Shown here one piece after another: positions 11,873 to 61,173 of a stretch of DNA of 64,000 bases. Made by a program: the position numbers and the translations under genes. Location: positions 1,364,001 to 1,428,000 of the forward strand of contig CAUYUJ010000002.1 of NCBI GenBank assembly GCA_963575745.1, given 5' to 3'. The notes under the pieces were generated by a model, which had not been told where the DNA came from, did not search any database, and was given only the letters and a program-made list of their open reading frames with translations. This DNA comes from Prorocentrum cordatum (lineage: Eukaryota). Numbering within the stretch: position 1 is the stretch's first letter; each line of letters begins with the position of its first letter.

Positions 11873-12137
11873 CGAGCCGTGGTGGTTCGACAGCACGTGT
11901 TCGGCTAGGCTGAGCCTTCTGGCCAAACGTGGGGTGACTCGCCCAGCCCGCAGGTGTAGCAAGTCACGAGCGTCGGCACGTTGTAGGCGTGCCCGGTGGT
12001 GCCAAGCCGCTTCGGACGGCGTCTTGGCGATCGATGGGAAGTCCTAGTGCTGGTCTAGGCGCAGGATAGGGCTGATGTATGGTTGGATGGTTCGCTTAAG
12101 AAAGCACCCCAAAACCAATCGCAACCAACGACTGCCC

Positions 12138-24105: not shown

Positions 24106-26973
24106 AGTCAGATGTTGGTTCCCCCCTCTCCCCCCCCCAAAACCTCCTTATCACCCGAAGGGTGATCGTATAAGTAAATATAACGACGACGATGACGGAC
24201 CGACGGTAACGCAGGCTGACAATCGGTGCCGATCCCCTCAACAATCGTCAGAGGGCTGCACGCGGAGGCCTGGAGCACAGAGTGGGGTGATACGGATCAA
24301 GCCCGAAGCGTAGCACAGCAATCGAAGAAGGAAGGAGATGAGAGCGAGGGCATCCTGAGCCAAGAGAAAAGCGCTGGCATGTGTGCTGCTCCTGCCGACG
24401 AGACCCTCAGCTAAGACCTTCACGATCAATACACGTGCGACCAGGGTGTAAACCCATGGAATATGATTCGATTGAACAGCCGAGCTTCGGGATTTCAAAC
24501 AAGGTGCACGTGCTGTCACGCTAGCAGGCGAAGCACATGCGGTTAAGGGAAAGAGAGCACAGTTTTCGAACTCCGAACCATGACTAACAGTACTCCGTTG
24601 TGAACGCTCTTGTTCCTCCATGTGGGAAGACTTTAAGCGTTTTGCAGAAAGAGAGGAATCAGCGGAGCATAAGGGGAGAAGGAGGCGGAGAGGATGGAGA
24701 AAGAGAGAGAGAGAGAGAGACAACTGATGGGATAATACATGTTTCCTGCAGAGGGAGATAATCCGAATCCGCACCTTGGACACGGTATGACAATAATGCG
24801 AGAACGGAGCTCGCATTCAAGGAGAGGCACTCGGCAACACGTCTGTCAATGGCCGACAGAACGTGATCCCTAGCTCGGATTCAAGAGGTGATGTTGCTGG
24901 CTCCAACGGGTGGAGGCTGAGCACAGCCGCCCTAATCCCACCAGCCCTTTCAGATCGCGAATGGTTCAGAGCGCTCCCTCTTCCGACCCCCTTTTCCACC
25001 CCTACTAATTCTCCCCCCTCCCCCCCTCTCCGCACCTCGAGGATAATTCACGACACGCTGGAAAAGTCAGGCCCGCGATCTGTATTGACAGTAATCTGGG
25101 CGTCCGTCGCAGCTCTGCAGCGAGCTCCTGGAAAAAACGCCTCGGGAACGCGGGAGCCGCGATCGCGGGCCCGCTGTTCCGCGGTCTGAAAGCCAGCTGG
25201 GCCGTTGGAGAGGAGCAAGAAGGAGGAAGGGGAGGAGGAGGGGGAGGAGGGGGAGGAGGAGGGCATGCGTCCTGAGACGGCCAGGAAACCAGATTAATGG
25301 ATACATGCAGTCCCTGCCCGAACGAGGCAAGCATCCCCGTCACGGACGAGGCCAGGAGCCAGAGAAGGTGAGACGGCATCGCCTCGTCTACGTGCTTCCT
25401 GCAACGCGGCGAATCTGGGGCACTCCTTACGCCCCAGTTTCTTAGAACAGAGCACGCGCGCAACATTGCTGCGCGAGGCTTCGGCACTGCTGCGCTGGAC
25501 CCCAGGGTGTTGAAACCGTGGTGAGCTTAGGCTACGGACGCGTTGCCCGTTCGCCACTGCTGCGCCCGGTCGCCGCCACCATGCCGAGGCGGCACAGGCC
25601 TTTGGTTCAGACCGAGGCCACGTGCTGCGTGCTACCAGTCTTGTGTCGACAGCGGTGGAGACGCCCATACACGCCGTGCGCACTGGTAGCAGCAACGCGC
25701 GGTGAAAACTGCAGGCCAGCAAGGTCTCCATGTGCCCCGCCCCTCTCTGCTGATGCGTCGATGGGACTGATGTTCGTAACATCGAGTTCTTTGGGGAGCC
25801 CGAAGCCTAGAAATATCCACCGACGCCGAAATTGAGAAGAAGACTTAGCGCGTCTTGTCGTGACACCGAAGGTCAGGAGGAGGAAGAGTAGGAGGGAGAA
25901 GAGGAGGAGGGGGAGGAGGAGGATGAAGACCACCACGCCATGTCACAGGGTGACGATGACGGTCGGCTCGCAAATGTCGATGGGCTCTGAGTTGTCATCG
26001 CCTCCGCCGACCTCAGGGGCATCCGGCAGAAGCAAGACCACCTGCTTGATCGGCGACCTGGTGGTGTTCTGCTTGCCCTTCCGAGATGTCTCCGAGCTCC
26101 AGAACAGGAAGCTGAAGATGGAGGAGGCCTGCATCCCTGGCATCGCGCCTGGTAGGGTAATCGGTGGAATTACCTGCGCTCGCGAGGAGCACTTGTAGAG
26201 GGAGCGGCTTGAACCAAAGTGTCTACGGATGGCGTATGTGACATATTGCGACGCTGCTATTTCTGGTGGTTAAGCTCGCGTGTACCGTCGGCCTTGTGTT
26301 GCCAACAAAGACAAGGATCCCTCGTTCGCTTGTCATCGAGAACTCGTGCGCGGCCACTCTTGCAACTCAAGCCGCCTCATCCGCCCGCGTGCCAGATGAA
26401 CCATGGGCGAACATCATGACGATCGAGCGGACTGCCTACCTTATCAGGCATCGCCTACCCTCGAGGCCCTGCAGGCGGAAGAAGGGGCGGGAGCGCGCCC
26501 GAAGGTGAAAAGACCTCCTCCTCCTCCTCCTCCTCCTCCTCCATCCCGCTCATTTCTCTGTTCGGTCCATGTTCTCCAGACACTTGCTCGACGAATCCAG
26601 GCATAGAGGTAGAGTGCGTCGAGCTTCGGCATCCAAGGCGACCGCTTCTGAGTGGTGGATTATCCTTGTTTCGAACCCCAGTGTGCCAATTCGAAGCGTT
26701 GGAAATCCTTGTCGAGGGGCGGCTGCAAATCGCTGAGGGTTGGGCTGAGGGGACGCATCACAAGATGTTGTCCAAGGCACTTAATTGCGAGGCGGGGATT
26801 CTCCATATCCACCGCCTAGTCAACCGACGTCCTGGGACCCCAGCTGGCGGTAGGCGTTGGATATATGTTTGCCCCAGGGGTCCCGAGTATATCCACATCC
26901 ACCGCCTGCCGAAATCCCCGAAGATCGATCTCATAGACACTAATGATGGATAAATCCTTGCCTCGGGTGAATG

Positions 26974-29900: not shown

Positions 29901-32505
29901 AAGCGCTGGCATGTGTGCTGCTCCTGCCGACGAGACCCTCAGCTAAGACCATCACGATCAATACACGTGCGACCAGGGTGTAAACCCATGGAATATGATT
30001 CGATTGAACAGCCGAGCTTCGGGATTTCAAACAAGGTGCACGTGCTGTCACGCTAGCAGGCGAAGCACATGCGGTTAAGGGAAAGAGAGCACAGTTTTCG
30101 AACTCCGAACCATGACTAACAGTACTCCGTTGTGAACGCTCTTGTTCCTCCATGTGGGAAGACTTTAAGCGTTTTGCAGAAAGAGAGGAATCAGAGGAGC
30201 ATAAGGGGAGAAGGAGGCGGAGAGGATGGAGAAAGAGAGAGAGAGAGAGACAACTGATGGGATAATACATGTTTCCTGCAGAGGGAGATAATCCGAATCC
30301 GCACCTTGGACACGGTATGACAATAATGCGAGAACGGAGCTCGCATTCAAGGAGAGGCACTCGGCAACACGTCTGTCAATGGCCGACAGAACGTGATCCC
30401 TAGCTCGGATTCAAGAGGCGATGTTGCTGGCTCCAACGGGTGGAGGCTGAGCACAGCCGCCCTAATCCCACCAGCCCTTTCAGGTCGCGAATGGTTCAGA
30501 GCGCTCCCTCTTCCGACCCCCTTTTCCACCCCTACTAATTCTCCCCCCTCCCCCCCTCTCCGCACCTCGAGGATAATTCACGACACGCTGGAAAAGTCAG
30601 GCCCGCGATCTGTATTGACAGTAATCTGGGCGTCCGTCGCAGCTCTGCAGCGAGCTCCTGGAAAAAACGCCTCGGGAACGCGGGAGCCGCGATCGCGGGC
30701 CCGCTGTTCCGCGGTCTGAAAGCCAGCTGGGCCGTTGGAGAGGAGCAAGAAGGAGGAAGGGGAGGAGGAGGGGGAGGAGGGGGAGGAGGAGGGCATGCGT
30801 CCTGAGACGGCCAGGAAACCAGATTAATGGATACATGCAGTCCCTGCCCGAACGAGGCAAGCATCCCCGTCACGGACGAGGCCAGGAGCCAGAGAAGGTG
30901 AGACGGCATCGCCTCGTTTACGTGCTTCCTGCAACGCGGCGAATCTGGGGCACTCCTTACGCCCCAGTTTCTTAGAACAGAGCACGCGCGCAACATTGCT
31001 GCGCGAGGCTTCGGCACTGCTGCGCTGGACCCCAGGGTGTTGAAACCGTGGTGAGCTTAGGCTACGGACGCGTTGCCCGTTCGCCACTGCTGCGCCCGGT
31101 CGCCGCCACCATGCCGAGGCGGCACAGGCCTTTGGTTCAGACCGAGGCCACGTGCTGCGTGCTACCAGTCTTGTGTCGACAGCGGTGGAGACGCCCATAC
31201 ACGCCGTGCGCACTGGTAGCAGCAACGCGCGGTGAAAACTGCAGGCCAGCAAGGTCTCCATGTGCCCCGCCCCTCTCTGCTGATGCGTCGATGGGACTGA
31301 TGTTCGTAACATCGAGTTCTTTGGGGAGCCCGAAGCCTAGAAATATCCACCGACGCCGAAATTGAGAAGAAGACTTAGCGCGTCTTGTCGTGACACCGAA
31401 GGTCAGGAGGAGGAAGAGGAGGAGGGAGAAGAGGAGGAGGGGGAGGAGGAGGATGAAGACCACCACGCCATGTCACAGGGTGACGATGACGGTCGGCTCG
31501 CAAATGTCGATGGGCTCTGAGTTGTCATCGCCTCCGCCGACCTCAGGGGCATCCGGCAGAAGCAAGACCACCTGCTTGATCGGCGACCTGGTGGTGTTCT
31601 GCTTGCCCTTCCGAGATGTCTCCGAGCTCCGGAACAGGAAGCTGAAGATGGAGGAGGCCTGCATCCCTGGCATCGCGCCTGGTAGGGTAATCGGTGGAAT
31701 TACCTGCGCTCGCGAGGAGCACTTGTAGAGGGAGCGGCTTGAACCAAAGTGTCTACGGATGGCGTATGTGACATATTGCGACGCTGCTATTTCTGGTGGT
31801 TAAGCTCGCGTGTACCGTCGGCCTTGTGTTGCCAACAAAGACAAGGATCCCTCCTTCGCTTGTCATCGAGAACTCGTGCGCGGCCACTCTTGCAACTCAA
31901 GCCGCCTCATCCACCCGCGTGCCAGATGAACCATGGGCGAACATCATGACGATCGAGCGGACTGCCTACCTTATCAGGCATCGCCTACCCTCGAGGCCCT
32001 GCAGGCGGAAGAAGGGGCGGGAGCGCGCCCGAAGGTGAAAAGACCTCCTCCTCCTCCTCCTCCTCCTCCTCCATCCCGCTCATTTCTCTGTTCGGTCCAT
32101 GTTCTCCAGACACTTGCTCGACGAATCCAGGCATAGAGGTAGAGTGCGTCGAGCTTCGGCATCCAAGGCGACCGCTTCTGAGTGGTGGATTATCCTTGTT
32201 TCGAACCCCAGTGTGCCAATTCGAAGCGTTGGAAATCCTTGTCGAGGGGCGGCTGCAAATCGCTGAGGGTTGGGCTGAGGGGACGCATCACAAGATGTTG
32301 TCCAAGGCACTTAATTGCGAGGCGGGGATTCTCCATATCCACCGCCTAGTCAACCGACGTCCTGGGACCCCAGCTGGCGGTAGGCGTTGGATATATGTTT
32401 GCCCCAGGGGTCCCGAGTATATCCACATCCACCGCCTGCCGAAATCCCCGAAGATCGATCTCATAGACACTAATGATGGATAAATCCTTGCCTCGGGTGA
32501 ATGCC
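26974..32505 (+). repeat. Tandem segmental duplication, copy 2
   Basis: Begins CCGTTTTTGAATCTAGTAAACTGG and ends GGGTGAATGCC; CC microhomology at the junction. Confidence 0.97.
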
Positions 32506-42503: not shown

Positions 42504-42540
42504 TCCGTAGCTATTTTGGCTCAAGCCATCTTGGCTCAAG
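42504..42540 (+). other. DinoSL plus tandem relict SL
   Basis: TCCGTAGCTATTTTGGCTCAAG (1 mismatch to DCCGTAGCCATTTTGGCTCAAG) followed by CCATCTTGGCTCAAG (1 mismatch to the 15-nt relict). Confidence 0.92.
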
Positions 42541-43880: not shown

Positions 43881-44411
43881 TCTTCCTCTTCCTCCTCCTC
43901 CTCCTCCTCCCTTCCACAGCTGGCAGATGAGACGCCAGGCGAGGCCACAGCCTGGGCTCTGCTTGTAGGGGTGGGGAGGGCGGGGGAAGGCGGGTTGAGC
44001 GGTGGGGCGAGACGATGATTATGCCGCGGACTCGGTGCGCCAGGGACATGGCAAATGTCACCGAAACGGTGCGCCTGAGGACTGGCACAGGTGCAGCTTC
44101 AGCTGACCGTTGTTGCGTTGCCTGGCCCCGAGGAGGAAGAGGGACATCCAGGAAGGGTCTGGGGCTCCCACTTTTCGGGGCTGGGCCGCAACTATCATTC
44201 AGGCGCGTGATTTCTGTGCTCGCACGGACACGCTTCAGAGCGCTACAGTGCTACAGGTGGGTCGAAGGTGAGGCCATGAAAGGCAGGGCGGGCGAGGCAA
44301 GGGGGAGGAGAAGGGAGCGTTAGGAGGAGGGTTGGCAGGAAAGGGTGGAGCAGGGGGGGGGAAAGGAGGAAGAGGAGGAGGTCGACGACGACAAAGACGA
44401 CGACGAGGACG

Positions 44412-44436
44412 TGGCTCAAGACATCTCGGCTCCAAG
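44412..44436 (+). other. Possible truncated SL plus degenerate relict SL
   Basis: TGGCTCAAG immediately followed by ACATCTCGGCTCCAAG, right after a (GAC)n tract. Confidence 0.45.
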
Positions 44437-48462: not shown

Positions 48463-48882
48463 CCTCCTCCTTCTCCTCCCCCTCCTCCTCCTCCTCCTCC
48501 TCCTCCTCCTCCTCCTCCTCCTCCTCCTCCTCCTCTCCACCTCCTCTTCCTTCACCTCCTGCTCCCCCCTCATCGTCGTCCCCATGCGCCGCCCCTCCTC
48601 AACTTCCGACTCCAAGATCCCGTTCTACACCCCCCTCCGATGCCTATGCGCCGGCACTCCTCTCCCTCCTCCGCCCCACTTCTCCCTTCTCCCCCCCCCG
48701 CCCCCTGCTCCTGCTCCTGCAACTGCTCCTGCTCCTGCTCCTCATCCTCCTCCATCTCCATCTCCTCCATCTCCTCCATCTCCTCCTCCTCCTCCCCTCC
48801 CCCTCCTCCTCCTCCTCCTCCTCCTCCTCATGCTCCTCCTACTGATGCTCCTCCTCCTCCCTCCTCCTCCTCCTCCTCCTCC

Positions 48883-48919
<37 letters not shown>

Positions 48920-48973
48920 TCATCAGCATCAGCATCAGCATCATCATCAGCATCATCACCATCATCATCATCA

Positions 48974-49026
<53 letters not shown>

Positions 49027-49055
49027 GCATCATCATCAGCATCAGCATCAGCATC

Positions 49056-49093
<38 letters not shown>

Positions 49094-49407
49094 GCAGCAG
49101 CATCAGCATCATCAGCATCAGCATCAGCATCAGCATCATCATCATCACCACCATCACCACCATCAGCATCATCATCATCACCACCACCACCATCACCACG
49201 ACCACGATCAGCATCATCATCAGCATCATCACCACACCACCACCACAATCATCATCATAAGCATCATCATCATAGTCATCATCTGCACCATCAGCATCAT
49301 CAGCATCATCATAATCATCAGCATCAGCATCATCATCATCATCATCAATATCATCATCATCAGCAACATCATCATCATCATCAGCATCACCATCACCATC
49401 ACCATCC

Positions 49408-49449
<42 letters not shown>

Positions 49450-49552
49450 GCATCATCATCATCATCGTCCTCGTCCTCATCCGTCCCTTCCCTCTCCTCG
49501 CCTCCTCCTCCTCCTCCTCCACCTCCTCCTCCTCCTCCTCCTCCTCCTCCTC
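48463..49552. repeat. Compound (CCT)n-(CAT)n-(CCT)n microsatellite, ~1.1 kb
   Basis: Direct reading; forms the 5' flank of LINE-B. Confidence 0.95.
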
Positions 49553-49571
49553 CGTAGCCATTTGGCTCAAG
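49551..49571 (+). other. Near-complete DinoSL at the 5' terminus of LINE-B
   Basis: TCCGTAGCCATTTGGCTCAAG is the 22-nt SL with one T missing from the T4 run; it lies 105 nt upstream of the ORF1 ATG. Confidence 0.93.
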
Positions 49572-49675
49572 ATGACGACCTGGGGGGCTGTCCAGCCTCC
49601 AGGCCGAAGGGAGACCTCTGGACCGAGGACAGTTCCCAGACGGGCGTCGGGCGCGCGCGCGGCACCGCTGCAGCC

Positions 49676-50935
49676 ATGGGGAGTGGCGGCGGCGGACGCG
49701 GGGCGGGCAGCGCCTGGTCGGGGACCCCGAATCGCCAGAGGGTTCCCCCGTGGAAGAGGAGCAGCAGTGGCAGTCGCCCTCCTCGCAGCAGCTACGTGGT
49801 GTGTGACGGGTGCAGCAGATGGCGCTACTGCAAGAATATCACCAGCAGGGGCGACCTCTGCATCTGCGGCAAGAACCTCGCCTGCCTCGTCCCCGACGGT
49901 CATGTCTTCCGTGACGACGATGGTGGGTGGCTGGCAGCACAGCCCCAAAGAGGAACCTCGCCCAGGATCAGCTGGGCAGATGGTTGGCAGCCAGGTGGTG
50001 GTGCAGGCGGGAAAGGGCAAGGAGGCCAACGCCAGCCACTCCCTCACGACAAGACTGTCGACCTCAAGGCTGCCGCCGCAGCAGCTTACAGCAAGCTCAG
50101 CAAGGACGACCCGCTCGGGCAGCACTACGAGGCCCTCTGGCCTGAGCTCGCCGCAGCTAAGCCACCAGCAGACCAACCAGTCGTTGGATTCAAGGAAGTG
50201 GAGGCAACTGCTCGACGCTTGGACAAACTCCAGAAGAAAGTACGATCGGCAGGGGAGCAAGTCGAGAGTGCCCAGCAGCACTTGGCTGAGAGTGAACGCA
50301 AGCTTCGTGAAGCCATGGAAGCCTCCACTGCAGCCGAAGATGAGTTCGACAAGCTCAAGGCCACAGTCGGCAAGCAAGAGGCCCCAGCTGAACCTGCAGC
50401 CGAGAAGCCAACGCTGGCAGCCCTCCTGGAGCAGTTCGAGCATGAGCCTGACGACTCCCACAAGTGGTCCGAGCCCGACAAGGAGGTCTGGCGAGCAGCG
50501 AAGGCCAAGGGCGAGCGCATGGCCCAGACGGTCAAGGAGCACGAGGAGGAGAAGGCGAAGCACCTGCGACTACTGGAGGAAGAGACGGCCAGGCACCAGG
50601 AGCAGCTGCGCCAGCTCGAGCAGGCCCGCACCAAGCGCCTGTCAAAGAGCGGAGTGCAAGACCCAGCAGCAGCAGAAGCCCCACCAGGCAAGCGAGTCTG
50701 CGCCGCCAGCCCAGCCCCTCAGCGAGGTGCCACCACATGCACTGAGGTAGCAGGGACAGCCGCCGCGGCTGCGCCCACCGGCGCCGCAGCAGCTGCCCAA
50801 CCAGAAGCAGCCGCGGCAGAACCTGACAAAGCAGAAGAACGCCGAGCCAGAGTGGAGGCCCACATCCAGGAGGCGCGAGAAGGTCTCGCTGGCAAGGCGC
50901 GCCGAGACAGTCGTCGACGCAGAAGGGCAAGGTGA
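49676..50935 (+). CDS. LINE-B ORF1 (C4 zinc-finger-like motif and coiled coils), intact frame
   Basis: MGSGGGG...VVCDGCSRW...LCICGK followed by heptad-rich segments. The track's start at 48446 is microsatellite read-through. Confidence 0.85.
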   Translation: MGSGGGGRGAGSAWSGTPNRQRVPPWKRSSSGSRPPRSSYVVCDGCSRWRYCKNITSRGDLCICGKNLACLVPDGHVFRDDDGGWLAAQPQRGTSPRISWADGWQPGGGAGGKGQGGQRQPLPHDKTVDLKAAAAAAYSKLSKDDPLGQHYEALWPELAAAKPPADQPVVGFKEVEATARRLDKLQKKVRSAGEQVESAQQHLAESERKLREAMEASTAAEDEFDKLKATVGKQEAPAEPAAEKPTLAALLEQFEHEPDDSHKWSEPDKEVWRAAKAKGERMAQTVKEHEEEKAKHLRLLEEETARHQEQLRQLEQARTKRLSKSGVQDPAAAEAPPGKRVCAASPAPQRGATTCTEVAGTAAAAAPTGAAAAAQPEAAAAEPDKAEERRARVEAHIQEAREGLAGKARRDSRRRRRAR

Positions 50936-53900
50936 CCACTCAGCAGGGTAGCCGCCCCAAGGCGAGCGCGAAGAAGGCTCGCCGCCCGCGTCGCATCGAC
51001 TTCTTCAACGTCACGACCTGGGGCCCCCAGGCACAGGGCTACCTCATGGAGATCAACAATGCCAAGGACAGGGACATCATTGGCATCGCGGAGCACCACC
51101 TCCGCCAGCCTGCGCAGATAAGCAAGGCAAGAGCGGCGCTCAGGAGGAATGGCATGCACAGCTACTGGACCAAGGCACGGCCAGGAGAAGGAGAAGGCAC
51201 TCGAGGAGGCACGTGTGCCATCACGCGAGGATCCTTGGACATCCAGGACAGGATCGCGGGTTTTGATGAGCACTACCTGCACGAGGACGGCAGTGACGTC
51301 ACGGTGGTGATCTCCAACCTGCACAACGTTCGTTTCGCAGTGGCCTTCGTCCACCTTGAGTGTGGGACGGGCTTTGGAGAGCGGAACGTCGACATCCTCT
51401 GCGACCTGCGGGAGAAGATGGCCGTCCGGGGAGGGCCCTGGGCAGCGCTTGGGGACTTCAACATGACGCCGTCGGAGCTCAGCAACAGCATTTGGCCCAG
51501 GGTGCTGAATGCTCAGGTAGCAGCGGCGGAGGATGGCGCCCCCGCATGTTCCCCAGCAGAAGGTGCAGCCAGGTGCATCGACTTCGCGCTGATCTCGCAG
51601 GGCCTGGCGCCGCATGTCGACCAGCTGGAGCTGCTCAGGACCGCGCCGTGGAAGCCGCGCATCGGCATCCGCTTGAAGCTGAAGGGGCGGCCTCTCATGC
51701 TCAAGGGCAGGGTGCTTCGCAGGCCAGCAGCCACAAAGCCGCCAGTCACAGTCGAGAGAATGCCGAAGTCCAGAGCCGCTTGCAGACGAGCGGCGCGCGG
51801 AGGCCAGGAGGCCATGCGCCGACGTCAGCAAGCGCCGGCAGAGGCAGGATGCGACCTGGACGAGAACGACATGGAGCCAGTGCCGCAGCTGCACTACGAC
51901 AAGGAGGTCCAGCACGTCATCCCTGACGAGCTGTGGCAGGCCACCTCCGAGCGGGTCAGCGCGCGCGCCTACGACGAGTTGCCCCAGCACTTGCAGCACA
52001 CAGTCGTCGGCAAGATGATGGAGCGGGACATGCTGGACCTGGGGCAACAGTACGACCGCTTCGCAAGCACCCTCGAGCTCAGCCTGCGCGAGAGCATCGG
52101 CATCCCAGAGGAAGAGCGTGGACGACATCTCGGGCACAGCCGGCCCCCGAGCTACAAGAGCGCGAGCATCAAGGACACCGTCACCTCTACGCCATGGGCA
52201 GGGGTCGAGAGGAAGATCCACGCGTGGTGGGCGGAGACCTCCTCCTTGGCGCGGCAGCTCTCGCACCATGATGCCCGAGCGCAGGAGGCAGCAGCAAGTC
52301 GACAGGGCAAGACCCAGGCACTTCCCGATGAGGACTCAGGAGGTGGACAGGGCCCGTCGGCGCCTGAGCTTGGCCCCGTCATGTCTGACAGCCAGGTAGG
52401 CCACGAAGACGGGGTTCCCGCACCAGCCATGAGCCCATCGAAGAGCTCGGGAGGAAGCTCGGTGGATCGCGCCCCCACCGAGCGGGGTGAGGGCCCCCCC
52501 GAGCTGCAGCAGCGGCGCGCAGGCAGTGGTGGCGCAGCTGGAAGCGGCGGCAGTAGCACCAAGGACATCGCGAATCAGCCAGCACTTGAGGAGGTCCCCC
52601 CTCCTCAGGCTGAGGTCCAGGAGCTCACAGAGGGGCCGGCCCAAGAGAGCCCAGAGCGACCCTGGTTCAGCCCGGCATCGCCGCCAAAGGACGCGCCCTG
52701 GACCTCCGAGACGGGAACAGCGTTACAAGAGATGAGGGCGAGGCGGCCCGGCCTAGAGAAAGAGGCAGGCCCCTCCTCACTCTCCTCGGGGTACCCATCC
52801 CCCACACAGACGAGCGCAGCTGACCATGGGAAGGCAGCTGGCCCCTGCTCTGAGATGGGTCAGGGGCTCCCGCCCCCCAAGTGCGCCGCCGCGGGACGCG
52901 TCCCAGACCTCGACGTGGGACCAACCCACAGCAGCGCAGACAGCTGCACAGAAGGGATTCAGAGGGGTGCCCTTCCCCCACCAGCAGGACGCAACACCAT
53001 GGACATCCAAGATCACGACCCCTTCGAGGATGAGGAGGACTACTTAGAGTGCCGCCAGGAGATCGCAGACCAGGAGAACAGCGACGGGTACCACCAGCAC
53101 AACGAGGGGCAGCAGGACAGCCTCGAGTTCGGCCAGACCGTTCGCCGTCGTGCAGCTGGATCTGCCTTTCCCCCACCAGCAGGACGCAGCACCATGGACG
53201 TCCAAGACCACGACCCCTTCGAGGATGAGGAGGACTGCTTGGAGCATCGCCAGGAGACCGCAGATCAGGAGGACTGCGACGGGCACCACCAGCTCATCGA
53301 GGGGCAGCAGGACAGCATCGACTACGGCCAGACCGTTCGTCGCCATGCAGCTGGGTCTGGTAAAACTGCCCCAGGTGACACGCACTGCTCACCTTCTCAG
53401 CCAGCTGACACTCTGGAGGCAGAGGGTACCGATCACCTGGGGAATCAGAACCAAGCGCCGCCAGGCCCAGAGGCAGAGGAGCCACGTGATATGGGCCTGC
53501 CCCCACCAGACCTCTGGAATGATGACCAGCACCAGCGGGAGCGGGAAGACTACGTGGCCATGAGAGACGACTTGGAGTACTGGGCGGCCATCTGGATGGA
53601 TAACCTGGTGCAGCTCCCCACGGACAACAGCAACTGGATGCAGATCTGCGTGCCGCTCCTGGAGACCATCTTGGGTGGCGGAGGCAACAATGGCATGGTG
53701 AGACTGCTCAGGTGTAGTTACCAGCAGGCCGGCCTCAGCCACATCATCAGGGACCTCTGCGAGCGAGCATGGAGACATGCAGAACCACGACGCCGAGGCT
53801 TTCTCCAAGGTCTTACGCGAGAGGAGCCGACGAGGAGGCGCGAATTGGAAATGATGCATTGGAGGGAGCTTGCTAACCTGCGGAGGTTTATGCGAGAAGT

Positions 53901-56900
53901 TATTGGCGAACGAGCACCAGAAGGAGCAGCGCGAAGACAACTACATGATGCTCCAGGAGCAGGCAGTGGCCCGAGTAGCCGCCGAGATCTGCAGGTCCGC
54001 ACCCACAGCGGCCACCAGACGCAGCAGCAGATCAACACAAGACGGCAGCTCGCACAGCAGCTCAACCAGCCTGACCCAGGCAGGCTGAACGAAGAAGGTG
54101 CAGCAAAGGACCAGCAGCAGGCCCTCCTCACAGACCTGCACGCGATAGCAGAGGGCGCGCTCGTGGACCCAGGGACGATCAGCAGGGTAGCAGAGGAGGT
54201 AAGGAGCATGGCCAAGCTACTCACACAAGCGGTGAAGAAGGCGTACATCCACTGGGTGCACGACGCCACGGCAGGCAGTGCGAAGATGGCCCACGCCTAC
54301 ACCAAGGCAGCGGAGCGCAGCCACCTGGAGGACATCCTTGAGCACGAGGGCCAGGTCATCAACCACCCGCAGCAGCTGGTGGACTTGCGCAAAGAGGCAT
54401 GGCAACGCAGGTGGACACGAGATGCACAGAAGGCCGAGAGGATCCAAGAGGCGCTGGCCAAGCTGAGGCAGGCTGCCTTGGCCCAAGAGAATGCCCTCGA
54501 GCCCATCAGCAAGGACATCATCGGCTCCATCATCCAGCACCTGAAGCGCAATGCTGGCCAAAGAGCGGACTGGTGGAGGGCGCCAGAGCTCAAGGCCATG
54601 GGCGCCCAGGGGCTGGAAGACTTCGTGCAGTGCCTGACCAGCTGTGAGCAACGGGCAGCGTGGCCGTGGCAATTCTACTTGGTGCTGGAGCTGCTGCTGG
54701 GCAAGAAGCCAGGAATCGGCGGTGAGCGCCCCATCGGCCTCATGCCCATGCCGTACCGCACCTGGAGCGCAGCCAGGAGGCCCATAGTAGCCACCTGGAG
54801 CAAGGCAGCGGCGGGCTTCTGGGACACGGCAGTAGCTGGCTCCTCAGCGCTACGAGTGGCACTGCACAGACTGATGAGGGCAGAAGCCGCCACGGAGATG
54901 GGCTTTCATGCAGCAGGAGTCTTCTACGACGCGGTAAACTTCTACGACAACATAGGCCTCGACCAGCTGATCGAGAAGGCCAGCGCCCTCCAGTGCCCGT
55001 TGCTGCCGCTGGCAATGGCCGTGCAGATGTACCTTGCGCCCAGGGCCATCATGGCCCACAGCCTCTTCTCGGACATCTTCGAGCCTGCCAACAGCATGGT
55101 AGCCGGCTGTGGCCAAGCGGTCGGCCTCACCAGACCGCTCTTGCATGGCATCCTGGATGCAGCGCACAGGCACCACATCTTCGTCGTCATGCAGCAGTAC
55201 CTGGACGACCTGGCCCTGCAGGTAGAGGGTGCGCGGCGGCAGGTCATTGACCAGATCAAGTGCGTGGTAGCGCTGGTGCACGATGGATTCAAGCAGCTCT
55301 CGATACCCATCTCCGTCAAGACGGCAGTGGTGGCCTCGGACAAGGACCTCCAGGCTGAAGTCGCCAGCATCCTGGACAGCCTGGGCACCCCCAACAAGCA
55401 ACCAGGTGTAGCGCGCGACCTCGGCGTGGACACCAGCCTCGGCAAGCAGCTGCGGCGACCCACCCATGCCGCGCACCAGGCCAAGGCCAAGCAGAGGGTG
55501 GCCAAGCTCAAGGACCTAGCGAAGACGGACGCCAGAGGCGCGGCAAAGGTCTATTCAGCAGGGGCCTACTGCCAGCAGGCCTGGGACTTACCAGCGCACG
55601 GCATCACGCCCACGGAGGCGAAGTCGGTCAGGGCTACGGAGGCAGCGCTCCTCACAGGCGGACACAAGGCTGGACGCTGCACGTCCACCATCCCCCTGAT
55701 CCAGAGGGGAATGCAAGAGGCGGTAACCCGAGCCATCGGCGACCAGATCAAGCAGTTCTGGCTCACCATAGTCGACCACCCGACGGAGCTCAAGAGGTAC
55801 CAGAGAGGCTGGCTCCTGCTCTACGCCAAGCTGGACGCCCTGGAACCCAACCGCAGGTGGCAGCAGGTCAAGGGGCCTATGGCAGGGGCCATCGCGCAGC
55901 TGCTTGGGTTAGGCTGGACACCGCGACGCCTGGACAGCTGGATCAGCCCAGCAGGTGACGAGTGGGCCTACAAGCCAGATGACATTCCTCATATCGGCGC
56001 GCTCCTGCATGAAGTCCAGCAGAGCGCGCAGCAGCAGCTCTGGCAGCAGGCAGCTGGCCATCGCTGTGGAGAAGGACTACAGGCTGGAGGCGACCTCTAT
56101 CAGCTGCAGCGCCACCTGAGGAGGAGGAGGCGCAAAGGACAGCATGCAGAGGCAGCCATGCTGGAGACCATAGCGGTGGCGGGCATCTGGACCAGGGAGC
56201 GTCGCAGGGCGGCCAACCTCAACCAAGAAGGCGACGACACCTGCGCGAGATGCGGCGAGGCGATAGAGACAGAGGAACACCGCTACTATACTACGCATGC
56301 CCTGCCAACGCAGAGATAAGGCACAGCAATGACACCGACCTGGCGAAGAAGGCGAAAGACGCGCTGGACCAGCGGCAAGACCTGCACTTCTGGCTCCGTG
56401 GCATCCCGCCAGCGGCCTGGGCAGCCAAGGTCGACCCAGACGAGGACGCGGCGAAGGCGGCGCAGATCTTCTGAACCAGCGAAGAGGCTCAGGCCGCAGC
56501 CCAGTCAGGGCACAAGGTTCGAGCAGACTATGTCGTCACGGACGGCTCAGGTGGTGCAGGGGCAACGGCCAAGGACCCCCGCCTCAGACGCTGCGGCTGG
56601 GCAGTGGTGGCCTTCAGGTTCGACGAGCACGGACGCCCGCAGGAAGTGGCCGCCTGGTACGGCACGATCAAGGCGCAGCACACGGTGCCACGGGCAGGGC
56701 TCACCGCCATGAGCAGAGCCATCGGGTACACCACGGCGGCGACAGCCAGGGGGCTCAACATAGTCAGCGATTGCAAGTACGCCCTGGACGCACTCAAGCA
56801 GATCCAGGATCCTGAGGACCTGGACTACAGGAGCACGAACTACGACCTCTGGCTCCAGACAAAGCAACAGCTGCAGAACAGCACGGACACCATCACGGGC

Positions 56901-59735
56901 CACCACATCCCAAGCCACCTGATCGAGCACCCAGCCGAGCTGGAGAGGTGGGATGGTCCAACCTGGTGGGTCATAGGAAACGAGATGGCAGACAAGTACG
57001 CAGGCTGGGGAGCGGAGCATGGAGCACTGGATCCAGCTATCATCGCGCAGCAGCAGATCAGGGACCAGACCACCACGGCGGTGCAAAACCGGCTGCTGGC
57101 CATCAACATGGCGGTGACGGTGGAGGACCCCAACAAGGCCCCTCAGCGCCCCAAGGCCAAGCGCCGAAAGCCGCAGACGGCGAGGGACAGGGCAGCCAAG
57201 CTGGGACACGACTTGCGCAAGCTAAATCCGCGACGGTGGTGTGCAACGTGTCGCAGTGGCCCAGCCAAAGGACAAAGCATCAGAGACTGGCTGGCAGAGA
57301 CGGGAGAATGCCTCGGGAAGTACGGCGGCCACCAGGACCAGCACGGCAACGTCAGGCTTGACTTCGAGGCGGCGCAGATCGGCACGCAGGTGGTGCACGT
57401 CCCCCACAAGACGCAGTTCTCCCATGGCTGGCTCTGGTGCGAGAAATGTGGCGGCACCAGCTACCTCGGGGACCACAAGGGCAGGATCGTGGCAGGAGTG
57501 GCAAGGAAGCTGGCCAGGCCATGTCAGCCCCCAACAGCAGCAGGGCGTCGGGTCTTGGCGGACATGCAGAGGGGCAAGCTGCCAAGAGGAGCTAAGCCAG
57601 CAGCAGACCCAGCTGATGAGGGTCTCAACGAGAGCACCATGCCTGGTGATTTCAAGCTCGGCCTGAGTAACCACGAGGCGATCGACCTGGACGGGGACAG
57701 CTCAGAGGCAGGGGACCCGCAGCCAGCTCCACACCAGCCACCCAGCCATCCGCACTCTGTCGTCCAAGCCAGCTGGAGGCTCGTGGACCACATGGAGGGC
57801 TACGCGGAGCAGTGGATGAACATGGTCGACCAAGAGGTCCGGGACGACATGGACGACTGGATGGAGCACTGCGCACCGCACCTCCTGGCCATCACCAATG
57901 TGGGGGGCAGAACGGACACGCAAGAGCAGACCAGGGCCGTCACCGCGCAGGAGCTTCAGCAGATCAAGGACTTCTGCGAAGAAGTCTGGCGCAACACGCA
58001 CCGCACGCGACGGAGGCCCATGACCAGGATGCTTACCCTCCCGCACGGTACAAGGCAGCAGGCAGCAAGAGTGCACATGGACGCCTTCCAGAACAGAAGG
58101 AACAACATCCTTGCGCACAGCATCCCCAGCAGCGAGCGCAGGCCGCTGCCGAGAACAGCGGAGGCCAGCCGAGAGCGGTCACCAGAGAACCTGGACGATG
58201 ATGACTCGACCCCAGACAGTGAAGCCCCAGAGCTGGAGGGCGAGCCGAGCGACCAGGAGATGGAGACCATGGCAGGACCTGATCGGAGGCACGACGCCAA
58301 CAGCCTGATGCAGACGGCCGTGCAGGTGGCAGTAACGCTGACCAAGCCAGTGGGGCCCGACCTGATGAAGTTCGTGAGCGAAGCAGATGAGGCCGGCCTG
58401 CTCCACCCAAGGCTTCGACACAACAAAGGAGAAGCTGACCAGGACCCCGAGCAGGAGGTGGCGTGGCTCGAGAGGAACAGGCTTGAGCAGCTCATGCAGT
58501 CGCTGGCAGGCTGCTGGATCCAGAAAGAGGGCGAGCAGGGTTGGCCATCGTGGCAGGCCGCGCGCGTGCCCCATGTGCTGAGGGCGCTGCAGACTGGCGT
58601 CTACCAGAGGCTGTTCAGCAACGTGTCAGGGCCGAGCCGCCAGCGCAGCCAGCGCCGAGCGGCGGAGGAGATCTGCCGCCTGGCATGGCTCAACAGCGGA
58701 GAGGCGCGCAGGCAGATCCAGCAGCAGGACCCGAAGGAGGCAGAGCGGCGCAGAGCAATGGCTGAGCAGCTCCTGGGCGAGACTGAGCCAGCGGTGAGGG
58801 GCCGCAGCCCGCGACCGCAAGCAGCAGTGCGAGAACCAAGCAGGGCTCCAGCCAGACAGCCGAGGAGGGGCCCAGAGGCCAGGGCCACCAGCAGCCCCGC
58901 CGAGCTGCGCACGGCAACGCCAGCGCCCGAGCTCGAGAGGCCCAAGGGACCCAGGGTACCGCAGCCAGAGCGGCCCCTGGAGGCGGGAAGGGCGGAGGAG
59001 CGGCAGAAACCCTCCAGCAGGCCCCTGTGCGGAGAGGGGGCAGGCCACCATGGACCCCTGCGCGGCGAGGGGGTAGGCCGCAGAGGACCCCAGCGTGGCG
59101 AGGGGTTAGGCCACAGCCCTGCGCCAGACGGGATGAAGAGGGGTGCCCGTCCCCCACCAGCAGGAAGGAGCAACATGGACAGGGCAGACCTCGACCACTT
59201 CCTTGAAGAGGAGAACAGCGAGGATTGCCTCCAGCAGCCCGTAGACAAGCAGGACAGCGATGACAACCACCAGCAGATCCCAGAGGTACAGCACAGCATA
59301 GGGTACCACCTGGCAGACCGCAGAGGACCCCAGCGCGGCGAGGGGTTAGGCCACGGAGGACCCCAGCGCGGTGAGGGGTTAGACCGCAGCAGACCCCAGC
59401 ATGGTGAGGGTTTCGGCCAGGAAGGGCCCCAGCACGGCGAAGAGGCAGACCGCAGAGGACCCCCGCGTGGCGAGGGGTTAGGCCACAGAACTGCGCAGCC
59501 CGAGACGACGGCAGACTACGACGACACAGACCTGCAGCGGGACCTGGAGAAGTTTTTCGGCGACCTTCCCCAGCGCGGTGAGGGGTTAGACCGCGTGGAA
59601 CCCCTGCGCGGCGAGGGGTTCGGCCACAGCAACCCCCTGCGCGGTGAGGGGGTAGACCGCTGTGCCACAAGCAAGCAGAGGCTCGAGGCGGAGGTCCCTG
59701 ACGGGCCGCCCAGTGAGCATGACGCTGACTTTTGA
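50932..59735 (+). pseudogene. LINE-B ORF2, very long; lightly decayed
   Basis: APE: FFNVT, IAEHH, GDFN, CIDF; KPR stands where LINE-A has SPH. RT: ERPIGL, FYDAVNFYDNI, MVAGC, YLDD. CARC-x8-H-x4-C is broken by a 5-nt TACTA duplication near 56284. In-frame TGA at 56472-56474. RNase H: VTDGS, PRAG (expected E), VSDC, PSH, GNEMAD. Confidence 0.92.
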
Positions 59736-60655
59736 CCAACAGTGTGGTAGATAGGACCTCGCAACTAACAGAGCGGACCCATACCCTGGGAAACCGACAG
59801 GCTGAACGCGAGGGGGAGGGCTTGGCCCGCGGATACCACGTGAACTGCGAACACAGCGAGCGGCATAGTCGGGGGACCTCGCCCAAGCCAGTGGGCAGTA
59901 GCATCGAGGATGGGGACAGTGCGAGACTCGGCGTTCCCCCGCGCGGCGAGGGGTTAGACCGCAGCAGGCCCCAGCGTGGCGAGGGGTTAGGCCACGGAGT
60001 ACCCCAGCGCGGTGAGGGGTTAGACCGCAACGATCCCCAGCGTGGCGAGGGGTTAGGCCACGGCGGACCCCATAGTGGTGAAGGGTTAGACCTCAGCAGG
60101 CCCCTGCGCGGCGAGGGGTTAGGCCACACGGGACCCCAGCGCGGTGAGGGGTTAGACCGCAACAGGCCCCTGCTTGGCGAGGGGTTAGGCCACGGAGCAC
60201 CCCAGCGCGGTGAAGGGTTAGACCGCAGCAACCCCCAGCGTGGCGAGGGGTTGGGCCACGATTTTCCCCAGCGCGGTGAGGGGTTAGACCGCACCGACCC
60301 CCAGTGTGGCGAGGGGTCAGGCCACGACGGGCCCCAGCGCGGTGAGGGGTTAGACCGCAACAGGCCCCTGCGCGGCGAGGGGTTAGGCCACCACGGAGCA
60401 CCCCAGCGCGGCGAGGGGCCAGACCGCAGCAGGCCCCAGCGCGGCGAGGGGTTAGGCCACGGAGGACCCCTGCGCGGCGAGGGGCTAGGCCGCAGTGCAC
60501 CCCAGCGTGGCGAGGGGTTAGGCCACAACCCTGCGCCAGGCAAGGCGGCCGTGAAGGCGCACGAGTCCAGGGACCAGCGGCCAGGGCGGTCCCTGGAAGA
60601 GCGCAGAGCGGAGCAGCGGCTGCGGCCGTCCATCAGGCTGCTCCTCAAGCTCTGA
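59732..60655 (+). CDS. LINE-B terminal reading frame of 11-aa PQRGEGL repeats (frameshifted ORF2 tail or ORF3)
   Basis: Stop-free 307 codons with the same repeat as the end of ORF2; overlaps the ORF2 stop (TTTTGACC). Confidence 0.6.
   Translation: MTNSVVDRTSQLTERTHTLGNRQAEREGEGLARGYHVNCEHSERHSRGTSPKPVGSSIEDGDSARLGVPPRGEGLDRSRPQRGEGLGHGVPQRGEGLDRNDPQRGEGLGHGGPHSGEGLDLSRPLRGEGLGHTGPQRGEGLDRNRPLLGEGLGHGAPQRGEGLDRSNPQRGEGLGHDFPQRGEGLDRTDPQCGEGSGHDGPQRGEGLDRNRPLRGEGLGHHGAPQRGEGPDRSRPQRGEGLGHGGPLRGEGLGRSAPQRGEGLGHNPAPGKAAVKAHESRDQRPGRSLEERRAEQRLRPSIRLLLKL
59936..60532 (+). repeat. 33-bp coding minisatellite, 18 units, mostly alternating DR/GH variants
   Basis: CCCCAGCG(C/T)GG(C/T)GAGGGGTTAG(A/G)CC(G/A)C plus 6 variable nt; 11 further units lie in three clusters within 59022-59665. 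Confidence 0.95.
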
Positions 60656-61173
60656 GAGGGCGGCGGCAGCATATCTTCAGACTGCCGCCGCTCACGGGGC
60701 GACTCCAGGAGTCATCGAGTGGCGGCAGTACGACGCCGTGAGATGAGGCCGCTGGCCCACCCCGCCTCGGGCCGTTCTGCCTGCGCGGGGTGCCGAGACC
60801 AGGGGCACCCACTCACGGGCGGGAGCACGCGGGTTTAAAAATCCTCTTCCTCCTCCTCGTCCTCCTCCTCCTCGTCCTCCTCCTCCTCCTCCAACTGCTC
60901 TAACCCCTCTCCCTCCTCCTCCTCCTCCTCCTCCTCCTCCTCCTCCTCCTCCTCCTCCTCCTCTCCTCCTCCTCCTACTGCTCCCATCTCTCCTCCTCCT
61001 CCTCCTCCTCCTCCTCCTCCCTCCTCCTCCCTCCTCCTCCTCCTCCTCCTCCTCCTCCTCCTGCTCCTCCTCCTGCTCCTGCTCCTGCTCCTCCTCCTCC
61101 TCCTCCTCCTCCTCCTCCTCCTCCTCCTCCGCCTCCCCGTCCAAGGCGACCCCCGCTCATCCCCAAGGTCGGC

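What the first reader, a model, noticed from the sequence alone, without database searches (positions are those of the whole stretch)
49500..49680. LINE-B starts exactly with the dinoflagellate spliced leader: a candidate SL-trans-splicing-dependent retrotransposon system
Seen: the (CCT)n tract runs straight into TCCGTAGCCATTTGGCTCAAG, followed by a ~100-nt UTR and ORF1 of an APE-RT-RNase H LINE. Known: DinoSL is trans-spliced onto mRNAs, and genomic SL copies mark retroposed mRNAs. Inference: the element's RNA was SL-capped and reverse-transcribed to its very 5' end. Such an element would need no internal promoter or ribozyme; read-through transcription plus trans-splicing at the SL-terminal AG would regenerate the same 5' end each cycle. 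The (CCT)n target could supply both a pyrimidine tract upstream of that AG and TCC microhomology with the SL's first bases.
Basis: partly seen in the sequence, partly recalled or inferred. Interest (0 to 1): 0.9.

Follow-up and report, generated by a model that had tools for sequence, protein, structure and literature searches.

The report
LINE retrotransposon starting with spliced leader
An 11.3-kb dinoflagellate LINE retrotransposon sitting inside a (TCC)n microsatellite begins with the trans-spliced leader that caps dinoflagellate mRNAs, so this copy was made from a leader-capped transcript of the element; whether the family depends on that leader is still untested.

Summary
A (TCC)n tract runs directly into TCCGTAGCCATTTGGCTCAAG (49551-49571). 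That is the 22-nt DinoSL minus one T. A 104-nt leader follows, then ORF1, then an APE-RT-RNase H ORF2. The element ends in A5 at 60841, and (TCC)n resumes there, so it lies inside one microsatellite.

The best reading is a full-length retrocopy of an SL-trans-spliced LINE mRNA, the same signature as dinoflagellate retrogenes. It is not an insertion into an SL RNA gene, and not a template switch onto SL RNA.

The family is multi-copy. Twenty Prorocentrum cordatum gene models are 71-96% identical in the RT region. One contig from an independent sequencing run shows a second variant with the same SL|ATG junction, this time with the canonical T4. That contig is the only evidence beyond this copy that the SL recurs in the family.

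The proposed life cycle is plausible but untested: no promoter, 5' end regenerated at the SL-terminal AG, (CCT)n as splice tract. The first AG after the pyrimidine tract is the SL-internal one. Using it would leave a relict SL, as in the retrogene at 42504, and this copy has none. No RNA data could be obtained. This copy is decayed, with one frameshift and one stop. Interest is moderate; the decisive test is a census of 5' ends in the assembly.

The parts
48463..49553 (+). Compound microsatellite upstream of the element: (CCT)n 48463-48884, (TCA)n 48883-49481, (TCC)n 49468-49553. The last 100 nt before the SL are 89% pyrimidine and contain no AG after 49449.
   Evidence: TRF; sequence; pyrimidine and AG counts.
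49551..49571 (+). DinoSL copy TCCGTAGCCATTTGGCTCAAG: 21 nt, one T fewer than the canonical 22-mer. The first 3 nt overlap the (TCC)n register. AG dinucleotides lie at 49556-57 (internal) and 49570-71 (terminal).
   Evidence: (1 match, 0.00 expected). Canonical sequence from the PMC7245778 passage.
49572..49675 (+). 104-nt leader between the SL and ORF1. It starts with an ATG that opens a 392-codon frame overlapping ORF1. That frame is low-complexity and probably not coding. The leader is conserved in contigs of other runs from 49563/49576 onward.
   Evidence: (records 9, 17, 25).
49676..50935 (+). ORF1, 420 aa: a Cys-rich motif (CDGCSRWRYCKNITSRGDLCICG) followed by a coiled-coil-like region. 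No Pfam family. The only relatives found are within this LINE family.
   Evidence: 3 hits in 1.84 billion representatives.
50851..56319 (+). ORF2 first part. The frame is open from 50851 and overlaps the ORF1 end in the -1 frame; the first ATG is at 51046. It holds the APE endonuclease, a long linker with a 195-bp x2 repeat (52968-53359), the RT, and the start of a CCHC knuckle. It is cut short by a frameshift near 56290.
   Evidence: Intact reading HRYYACPAN in the gene models.
56475..59735 (+). ORF2 continuation: RNase H and a long C-terminal region ending in PQRGEGLGH-type repeats. An in-frame TGA at 56472-74 precedes it; family members read Cys there (IFCTSEE).
   Evidence: (RNase_H 30.0 bits).
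59736..60841 (+). 3' region: 33/66-bp tandem repeats (59936-60526), a unique tail, and a terminal A5 (60837-60841).
60842..61136 (+). (TCC)n resuming directly after the element (95% pyrimidine). It is the same repeat as upstream, so the element lies within one microsatellite and no target-site duplication can be defined.

Best explanation
LINE-B (49551-60841) is an autonomous-type non-LTR retrotransposon with ORF1 and an APE-RT-CCHC-RNase H ORF2. Its transcripts are processed like host mRNAs. The 22-nt DinoSL is trans-spliced onto an AG directly 5' of ATGACGACC. The element's own RT then copies the capped RNA to, or within 3 nt of, its 5' end by target-primed reverse transcription. Here that happened inside a (TCC)n microsatellite. 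Full-length daughter copies therefore start with SL, the same signature as dinoflagellate retrogenes. Shown: the anatomy, the precise SL-exon/leader junction, the flanks, that the family is multi-copy, and one second variant with the same junction. Inferred: trans-splicing as the source of the SL, recurrence in most full-length copies, expression by read-through within a co-oriented transcription unit, and TCC/GGA microhomology at the 5' join. This particular copy is no longer autonomous (one frameshift, one stop).
For: (1) SL 20-mer: 1 match, 0.00 expected. It is contiguous with the leader and ORF1 on the same strand. (2) Only the SL exon is present, ending at its 3' AG. (TCC)n lies on both flanks and there are no Rfam hits in the window. 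This fits trans-splicing followed by retroposition. (3) APE, RT and RNase H all reach their Pfam cut-offs. (4) The family is multi-copy. Of 26 hits to the RT region, 20 are P. cordatum gene models at 71-96% identity, each listed with one contig and with different longest-contig lengths. Of those 20, 17 contain ORF1 sequence and 4 start at the ORF1 ATG. In run X1, 112 contig pieces were laid: 26 at >=99% identity, 56 at 95-99%, 24 at 90-95%, 6 lower. (5) An X1 contig reads TTTTGGCTCAAGATGCTTT immediately before 49579. This is the same SL|ATG junction with the canonical T-run, and the next 4 nt differ from the window. (6) SL-tagged retrocopies are common here. The window holds three more SL-like sites, one of them with a relict. 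(7) In print: DinoSL marks retroposed mRNAs (PMC7245778, PMC12014239 passages). The GO term 'RNA-dependent DNA replication' is enriched among DinoSL-bearing retrogenes of Symbiodinium (PMC5585692 passage). TE transcripts carry SL in Hydra (PMC12220107 passage).
Against: Only one complete SL-flank junction was seen. The read-laying tool masked 49500-49562, so what lies upstream of the SL in other copies is unknown. The second junction is a single contig and shows only the last 12 nt of SL, so it could equally be a relict. No RNA evidence was obtained. The SL is one T short, and its first 3 nt are ambiguous with the repeat. The other LINE in the window (LINE-A, minus strand; RT 29% identical) has no SL within 3 mismatches at its 5' side. 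A preprint reports no overlap between functions enriched in DinoSL-relict genes and in RT genes in two Symbiodinium genomes (10.1101/783902 passage).
Confidence: 0.62

Rival explanations
1. The family is obligately SL-dependent. SL-bearing genomic copies are themselves the sources and have no promoter. They are transcribed by read-through, and trans-splicing at the SL-terminal AG (49570-71) regenerates an identical 5' end each cycle. The (CCT)n target supplies the polypyrimidine tract and TCC microhomology.
For: There is a single SL with no relict, as exact regeneration would give. A ~100-nt AG-free pyrimidine stretch lies upstream. Acceptor choice among AGs is flexible, and a host gene with a genomic SL at the exact trans-splice site has been reported (PMC2488372 passages). 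LINE-B has the same orientation as the nearest upstream SL-tagged unit (42504, +). LINE-A (-) matches the SL-like sites at 26208 and 31738 (-). Insertion inside (TCC)n occurred where such arrays cover about 3% of the window.
Against: The first AG after the pyrimidine tract is the SL-internal one (49556-57). The window's own retrogene shows that this AG is used, leaving the relict CCATCTTGGCTCAAG. This model also cannot be told apart from a first-generation copy of a source that lacks a genomic SL. Target preference rests on n=1. There is no RNA data.
Confidence: 0.25
2. The SL was captured once by an ancestor and is now simply inherited as part of the family's 5' leader. Transcription starts at or upstream of it. 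The SL's TTT(T/G) might even serve as a portable core-promoter motif, as proposed for retrogenes. The SL is not re-added at this position each cycle.
For: Song et al. propose that the DinoSL TTT(T/G) acts as a basal promoter carried by retrocopies (PMC5585692 passages). Two variants share the junction, which descent would also explain. The window copy's SL has decayed by one T, like ordinary sequence.
Against: A transcript starting at or inside the SL would lose the SL's 5' part on the next copy, unless transcription starts upstream and reverse transcription or processing ends exactly at the SL's first base. The 5' boundary coincides with the SL start and with the microsatellite. Between the two variants, the 12 SL letters differ only in the T-run, while 4 of the next 7 letters differ. 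This is a tiny sample, and the four changes may be a single event.
Confidence: 0.1
3. SLACS/CZAR/NeSL-like case: the element is a site-specific LINE inserted into an SL RNA gene, so the SL is target DNA rather than part of the retrocopied RNA.
For: Such elements exist in other trans-splicing lineages. CZAR and SLACS insert between nt 11 and 12 of the miniexon (PMC5814959 passage).
Against: The SL exon is complete to its 3' AG on the 5' side. Nothing SL-like or intron-like follows the element. Both flanks are (TCC)n. The endonuclease is APE-type. There is no SL gene array in the window.
Confidence: 0.01
4. Chance juxtaposition, or RT template switching from the LINE RNA onto free SL donor RNA or onto another capped mRNA.
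For: Chimeric retrocopies made by LINE RTs are known in other systems (recalled, not checked here).
Against: A switch onto the SL donor RNA would copy its intron part. Only the exon is present, joined exactly at the exon's 3' end. The same junction occurs in a second variant. The SL 20-mer has 0.00 expected chance matches.
Confidence: 0.02

Closest known systems
DinoSL-tagged retrogenes ('mRNA recycling') of dinoflagellates
   Same: A genomic copy begins with the trans-spliced leader exon, marking reverse transcription of a mature SL-capped RNA. A short genomic A-run sits at the 3' end. The window holds a classic example with SL plus relict at 42504-42540 (PMC7245778, PMC5585692, PMC12014239 and PMC2488372 passages).
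   Different: The retrocopied RNA is the LINE's own bicistronic mRNA (11.3 kb), so the copy results from cis action of the machinery rather than capture of a host mRNA. It has no relict. In four literature searches I found no paper describing a LINE family whose copies start with DinoSL. The nearest is an enrichment of the GO term 'RNA-dependent DNA replication' among DinoSL retrogenes (PMC5585692). Supplements were not read.
SLACS / CZAR (trypanosomatid site-specific LINEs in SL RNA genes)
   Same: A LINE physically joined to spliced-leader sequence in an organism that trans-splices its mRNAs.
   Different: Those elements insert between nt 11 and 12 of the miniexon of the SL gene (PMC5814959 passage), so SL halves flank the element. 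Here the whole exon lies on the 5' side only, and the target is (TCC)n.
L1Tc / ingi with the Pr77 internal promoter and ribozyme
   Same: A LINE in a genome with polycistronic-like transcription and SL trans-splicing. It faces the same problem of restoring a defined 5' end.
   Different: L1Tc solves the problem with an internal promoter and ribozyme, and its transcripts lack an SL (PMC5814959 passage; PMC1874656 title and abstract start in the search listing). LINE-B's 5' end is the SL itself.
SL-trans-spliced transposon transcripts in Hydra
   Same: Transposon RNAs use the host's SL trans-splicing. About 30% of TE Iso-Seq reads carry an SL (PMC12220107 passage).
   Different: That is RNA-level evidence only. 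The passage read does not describe genomic copies that begin with SL.
Microsatellite-targeting LINEs (recalled from memory, not checked here)
   Same: Insertion inside a simple repeat, with the same repeat on both sides.
   Different: Only one insertion was seen here, so specificity is not established.

Membership tests
Non-LTR (LINE) retrotransposon, APE type with RNase H | Reverse transcriptase domain | tested here: met
   RVT_1 29.8 bits against a cut-off of 29.6. Twenty family members are 71-96% identical in this region.
Non-LTR (LINE) retrotransposon, APE type with RNase H | N-terminal apurinic/apyrimidinic-type endonuclease in ORF2 | tested here: met
   Exo_endo_phos 30.7 bits against a cut-off of 24.5.
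Non-LTR (LINE) retrotransposon, APE type with RNase H | RNase H downstream of the RT | tested here: met
   RNase_H 30.0 bits against a cut-off of 25.8. In this copy it is separated from the RT by a frameshift and a stop. It is continuous in the gene models.
Non-LTR (LINE) retrotransposon, APE type with RNase H | No LTRs; 3' A-run or simple tail; target-site duplication | tested here: inconclusive
   No terminal direct repeats of the element were found. An A5 sits at the 3' end. A target-site duplication cannot be defined because both flanks are (TCC)n.
Named LINE clade (I, Tad1, L1, etc.) | Placement of the RT in a reference phylogeny | not tested
   No reference RT set was available. There is no PDB sequence match. 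The only non-family relatives are 27-31% identical unnamed proteins.
DinoSL-tagged retrocopy | DinoSL exon at the 5' end of the copy, same strand, ending at its 3' AG | tested here: met
   20 contiguous letters match, with one T missing from the T4 run.
DinoSL-tagged retrocopy | The SL-bearing RNA exists (a trans-spliced transcript of the element) | not testable with these tools
   No RNA holder was listed and only contigs were available.
DinoSL-tagged retrocopy | Relict SL(s) after the SL, showing repeated cycles | tested here: not met
   There is none after 49571. The retrogene at 42504 has one. A relict is not required for a first-cycle copy.
SL-gene-specific LINE (SLACS/CZAR/NeSL type) | Insertion within an SL RNA gene, with SL exon or intron sequence on both sides | tested here: not met
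   The 3' flank is (TCC)n, the upstream flank is a microsatellite, and the SL exon is undivided.
Microsatellite-specific LINE | Most copies lie inside the same repeat type | not testable with these tools
   One copy was seen. (TCC)n/(GGA)n arrays cover 2.7-3.3% of the window. Flanks of other copies could not be fetched.

The most novel reading that the evidence does not exclude
LINE-B is a retrotransposon family whose life cycle is built on the host's spliced leader. It carries no promoter of its own. It is expressed by read-through inside unidirectional gene arrays. It receives its cap and defined 5' end by SL trans-splicing, copies that SL into every full-length daughter, and can regenerate it at the SL-terminal AG. 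Its (TCC)n-directed integration machinery is also the long-sought reverse transcriptase behind the mass 'recycling' of SL-capped host mRNAs into dinoflagellate genomes.
Probability: 0.22. Interest if true: 0.8.

Novelty: new variant of a known kind. Interest (0 to 1): 0.55.

Why it matters
Dinoflagellate genomes are full of SL-tagged retrogenes, yet the passages read say the responsible reverse transcriptase is unknown (PMC5585692). A LINE whose own full-length copy carries the same SL tag shows that this element's machinery can copy an SL-capped RNA to its 5' end and integrate it. That makes LINE-B a concrete, testable candidate for the enzyme. It also bears on how LINEs keep a defined 5' end. 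Trypanosome L1Tc uses an internal promoter and ribozyme, and SLACS/CZAR use the SL gene's promoter. A LINE that relies on trans-splicing itself would be a third solution. The family has at least 20 long gene-model copies in a published assembly, so a census of 5' ends could settle the question quickly.

Tried and rejected
- Whole genome: none is held, so no census of copies was possible.
- Earlier notes of this scan: nothing by place, words, sequence or relatives.
- Metagenome-contig scan with a 22-mer of the leader: 2 loci, both chance matches. They are near-identical GC-rich stretches with no similarity to the element beyond the 22-mer, and look like a bacterial protein-coding gene (read by eye, not searched).
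- Viral contigs: the SL+leader pattern gave 0 matches, and ORF1 gave 0 confirmed relatives.
- Genome contigs with a 24-mer: 0 matches.
- Protein word searches with the in-frame translation of SL + leader + ORF1 N-terminus, hoping for edge-of-contig or transcript-derived proteins that read through the SL. Result: 0 hits at 253-805 aa and 0 at 30-252 aa. The 'longer' class was not searched with this query.
- The 20 long gene models fetched contain no SL-encoded peptide.
- No RNA holder was listed for the element's first 1.5 kb. All four runs laid were contigs. The tool skipped 49500-49562 as repeat, so flanks upstream of the SL in other copies, and the 18 and 30 extra letters of records 17 and 25, could not be read.
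- The listing of cluster members, tried in order to get accessions of the gene models, was switched off.
- Rfam: 0 families in the window. PDB sequence search of the RT region: 0.
- Idea rejected: that the motif TCCTCTTCCTCCTCC, shared by the 3' junctions of LINE-B and of the stretch after the retrogene, marks a common target. It occurs 5 times in the window, including inside unrelated arrays.
- Idea left weak: the 9-nt TGGCTCAAG at 44412 as a truncated SL. By my own arithmetic, about 0.5 such 9-mers are expected by chance.
- LINE-A's 5' side has only a 2-mismatch resemblance to the SL 3' half. I do not count it as an SL.
Full report
**What is there**

The window is about 60% G+C and no whole genome is held for it. 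From 48463 a compound microsatellite runs up to 49553: (CCT)n, then (TCA)n, then (TCC)n. At 49551-49571 the sequence reads TCCGTAGCCATTTGGCTCAAG. The canonical dinoflagellate spliced leader is DCCGTAGCCATTTTGGCTCAAG (passages in PMC7245778, and PMC5585692). The window copy is that leader with one T missing from the T4 run. The 20-mer without the first letter occurs once in the window, against 0.00 expected in 100 shuffles. Its first three letters continue the (TCC)n register, so only 18 nt are unambiguously SL.

**The element behind the SL**

- An ATG follows the SL at once (49572). It opens a 392-codon, low-complexity frame that I take to be spurious.
- After 104 nt comes ORF1 (49676-50935, 420 aa). 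It has a Cys-rich motif and a coiled-coil-like part. It has no Pfam family. Its only relatives among 1.84 billion representatives belong to this family (3 hits).
- ORF2's frame is open from 50851 and overlaps the ORF1 end. It carries Exo_endo_phos (30.7 bits), RVT_1 (29.8 bits) and, further on, RNase_H (30.0 bits). Each is at or above its curated cut-off.
- In this copy the RT-CCHC part and the RNase H part are separated by a frameshift near 56290 and an in-frame TGA at 56472. Related gene models read straight through these points (HRYYACPAN, IFCTSEE). The copy is therefore decayed.
- The 3' part holds 33/66-bp repeats and ends in A5 at 60837-60841. (TCC)n resumes directly after that, at 60842-61136.

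The element (49551-60841, about 11.3 kb) therefore sits inside one (TCC)n array, and no target-site duplication can be defined. The window holds no second copy of the element.

**How the SL got there**

Only the SL exon is present. It is joined at its 3' AG to the element's leader, on the element's strand. Neither flank looks like an SL RNA gene, and Rfam finds nothing in the window.

This excludes a SLACS/CZAR-type insertion into an SL gene. Those elements split the miniexon between nt 11 and 12 (PMC5814959 passage). It also argues against a template switch onto the SL donor RNA, which would bring intron sequence along.

What remains is the retrogene signature. A transcript of the element received the SL by trans-splicing and was reverse-transcribed to, or within 3 nt of, its 5' end.

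The window shows that such events are common in this genome. It has three further SL-like sites. One is a textbook SL plus relict (TCCGTAGCTATTTTGGCTCAAG followed by CCATCTTGGCTCAAG at 42504-42540). The other two are copies of one degenerate SL in a 5.5-kb tandem duplication on the minus strand.

**Is it a family feature?**

The family is clearly multi-copy.
- A search with the RT region gave 26 hits. Twenty are Prorocentrum cordatum gene models at 71-96% identity, each listed with one contig and with different longest-contig lengths.
- Of those 20, 17 contain ORF1 sequence and 4 begin at the ORF1 ATG.
- Thirteen public runs from nine studies hold part of the first 1.5 kb. None is on record as RNA.
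- Four runs were laid, all as contigs. In X1, 112 pieces were laid: 26 at >=99% identity, 56 at 95-99%, 24 at 90-95% and 6 lower. So several variants exist.

The tool skipped 49500-49562 as repeat. What precedes the SL in other copies is therefore invisible, including the 18 and 30 extra letters of records 17 and 25.

One informative piece remains. An X1 contig reads TTTTGGCTCAAGATGCTTT immediately before 49579. Against the window's ATTTGGCTCAAGATGACGA, this is the same SL|ATG junction with the canonical T-run, followed by four different letters and then the shared leader. So at least one other variant has SL-derived sequence at the same junction. It shows only the last 12 SL letters and could be a relict. 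This single contig is the whole of my evidence for recurrence.

Every other route to more 5' ends failed: metagenome, viral and prokaryote-genome collections, protein searches for SL-encoded peptides, and cluster look-up.

The second LINE in the window is LINE-A, on the minus strand at roughly 12000 down to 5600. It has APE, RT and an RNase H-like motif, and its RT is 29% identical to LINE-B's. It shows no SL at its 5' side. It may be truncated.

**The proposed mechanism**

The idea that the element needs no promoter is plausible in an organism with unidirectional, trans-spliced gene arrays. LINE-B has the same orientation as the nearest upstream SL-tagged unit (42504, +). LINE-A shares the orientation of the minus-strand SL-like sites. 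That is two cases of two, which is weak.

The specific claim that (CCT)n plus the SL-terminal AG regenerates the same end is less secure. From 49451 to 49555 there is no AG, and the last 100 nt are 89% pyrimidine. The first AG after this tract is the SL-internal one (49556-57). Using it yields SL plus a 14-15-nt relict, which is exactly what the neighbouring retrogene shows. LINE-B has no relict.

There are two possible explanations. Its source may have lacked a genomic SL, or the terminal AG (49570-71) may have been used. The second is possible. Acceptor choice among AGs is reported as flexible, and one host gene has a genomic SL at the exact trans-splice site (PMC2488372 passages).

A further alternative comes from Song et al. 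They propose that the SL's TTT(T/G) is a portable core-promoter motif (PMC5585692 passages).

For the target, (TCC)n/(GGA)n arrays of four or more units cover 2.7-3.3% of the window. An insertion inside one is therefore suggestive of preference, but it is one event.

**What is in print**

I ran four searches on SL and LINEs in dinoflagellates and other trans-splicing taxa, plus one on SLACS/CZAR. I read passages by term search, not whole papers and not supplements.

I found no description of a LINE family whose copies begin with DinoSL. The nearest statements are these:
- The GO term 'RNA-dependent DNA replication' is enriched among DinoSL-bearing retrogenes, and the reverse transcriptase behind retroposition is unknown (PMC5585692).
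- An opposite remark that functions enriched in DinoSL-relict genes and in RT genes do not overlap in two Symbiodinium genomes (10.1101/783902).
- About 30% of transposon Iso-Seq reads carry an SL in Hydra (PMC12220107).
- L1Tc transcripts lack an SL because of the Pr77 promoter and ribozyme (PMC5814959).

P. cordatum is reported at 59.7% G+C, with dinoSL on 4.95% of assembled transcripts (PMC10666404 passages). The supplementary tables of PMC5585692 and PMC10666404 might list RT-encoding, SL-bearing models. I did not open them.

**Verdict**

The core inference, that an SL-capped element RNA was copied essentially full length, is well supported. Recurrence in the family has one supporting contig. 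Dependence on trans-splicing, regeneration at the terminal AG, and microsatellite targeting are open.

A specialist would largely expect LINE mRNAs to be trans-spliced and their full-length copies to carry the SL. The value lies elsewhere: it names a concrete multi-copy LINE as a candidate for the dinoflagellate retroposition machinery and sets up a quick census test.

Noticed in passing
window 42504-42540 (+): A classic recycled retrogene 5' end: full DinoSL (1 mismatch, TCCGTAGCTATTTTGGCTCAAG) followed directly by a relict CCATCTTGGCTCAAG. It is preceded by a purine-rich GGA-type tract, and an ATG lies at 42619. This shows that the SL-internal AG is used as acceptor in this genome. The extent and identity of the gene were not resolved.
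   Followed up: partly
window 26208-26229 and 31738-31759 (-): Two identical degenerate SL copies (TCCGTAGACACTTTGGTTCAAG, 3 mismatches) with identical flanks 5.53 kb apart. They indicate a tandem duplication of a unit that itself began as an SL-tagged retrocopy.
   Followed up: no
window ~5600-12000 (-): A second, more decayed LINE ('LINE-A'). It has an ORF1 with a Cys-rich motif and coiled coil, APE (9789-11963), RT (8135-10012, 29% identical to LINE-B's RT), and an RNase H-like DGS motif in 5608-7209. No SL lies at its 5' side. AT/ACAT-type simple repeats lie about 300 nt upstream of ORF1.
   Followed up: partly
window 49572-50750 (+): The ATG immediately after the SL has A at -3 and opens a 392-codon frame overlapping almost all of ORF1. 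If it is recognised, it would compete with ORF1 initiation. Several P. cordatum gene models start in this alternative frame (P0006, P0007, P0017, P0019, P0021).
   Followed up: no
window ~49780-49792; proteins P0018, P0025: Two annotated P. cordatum gene models fuse host exons to LINE-B ORF1 exactly at ...SSYVVCDGC. One host part is an ion-channel-like protein; the other is a cysteine-rich repeat protein. The window has an acceptor-like CCTCCTCGCAG/CAG at that point. These are either prediction artefacts or read-through chimeric transcripts.
   Followed up: no
window 50851-51046: The ORF2 frame is open for 65 codons upstream of its first ATG and overlaps the ORF1 end in the -1 frame. The stretch IDFFNVTTW, upstream of the ATG, looks like the first strand of the endonuclease. 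This suggests frameshifting or reinitiation rather than independent initiation.
   Followed up: no
window 52968-53359 and 59022-60526: Internal tandem repeats of the element. A 195-bp unit occurs twice (88% identical) in the APE-RT linker. 33/66-bp units encode PQRGEGLGH/PQRGEGLDR peptides at the C-terminal end, and these continue past the stop in another frame.
   Followed up: no
whole window: Strong strand asymmetry of TCC-type microsatellites. 1490 nt of (TCC)n-type arrays are written on the + strand, against 254 nt of (GGA)n-type (arrays of 4 or more perfect units).
   Followed up: no
window 44411-44420 (+): GTGGCTCAAG, matching the last 9 letters of the SL, preceded by GGA- and GAC-type repeats. 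It may be a 5'-truncated SL of another retrocopy, but about 0.5 such 9-mers are expected by chance.
   Followed up: no
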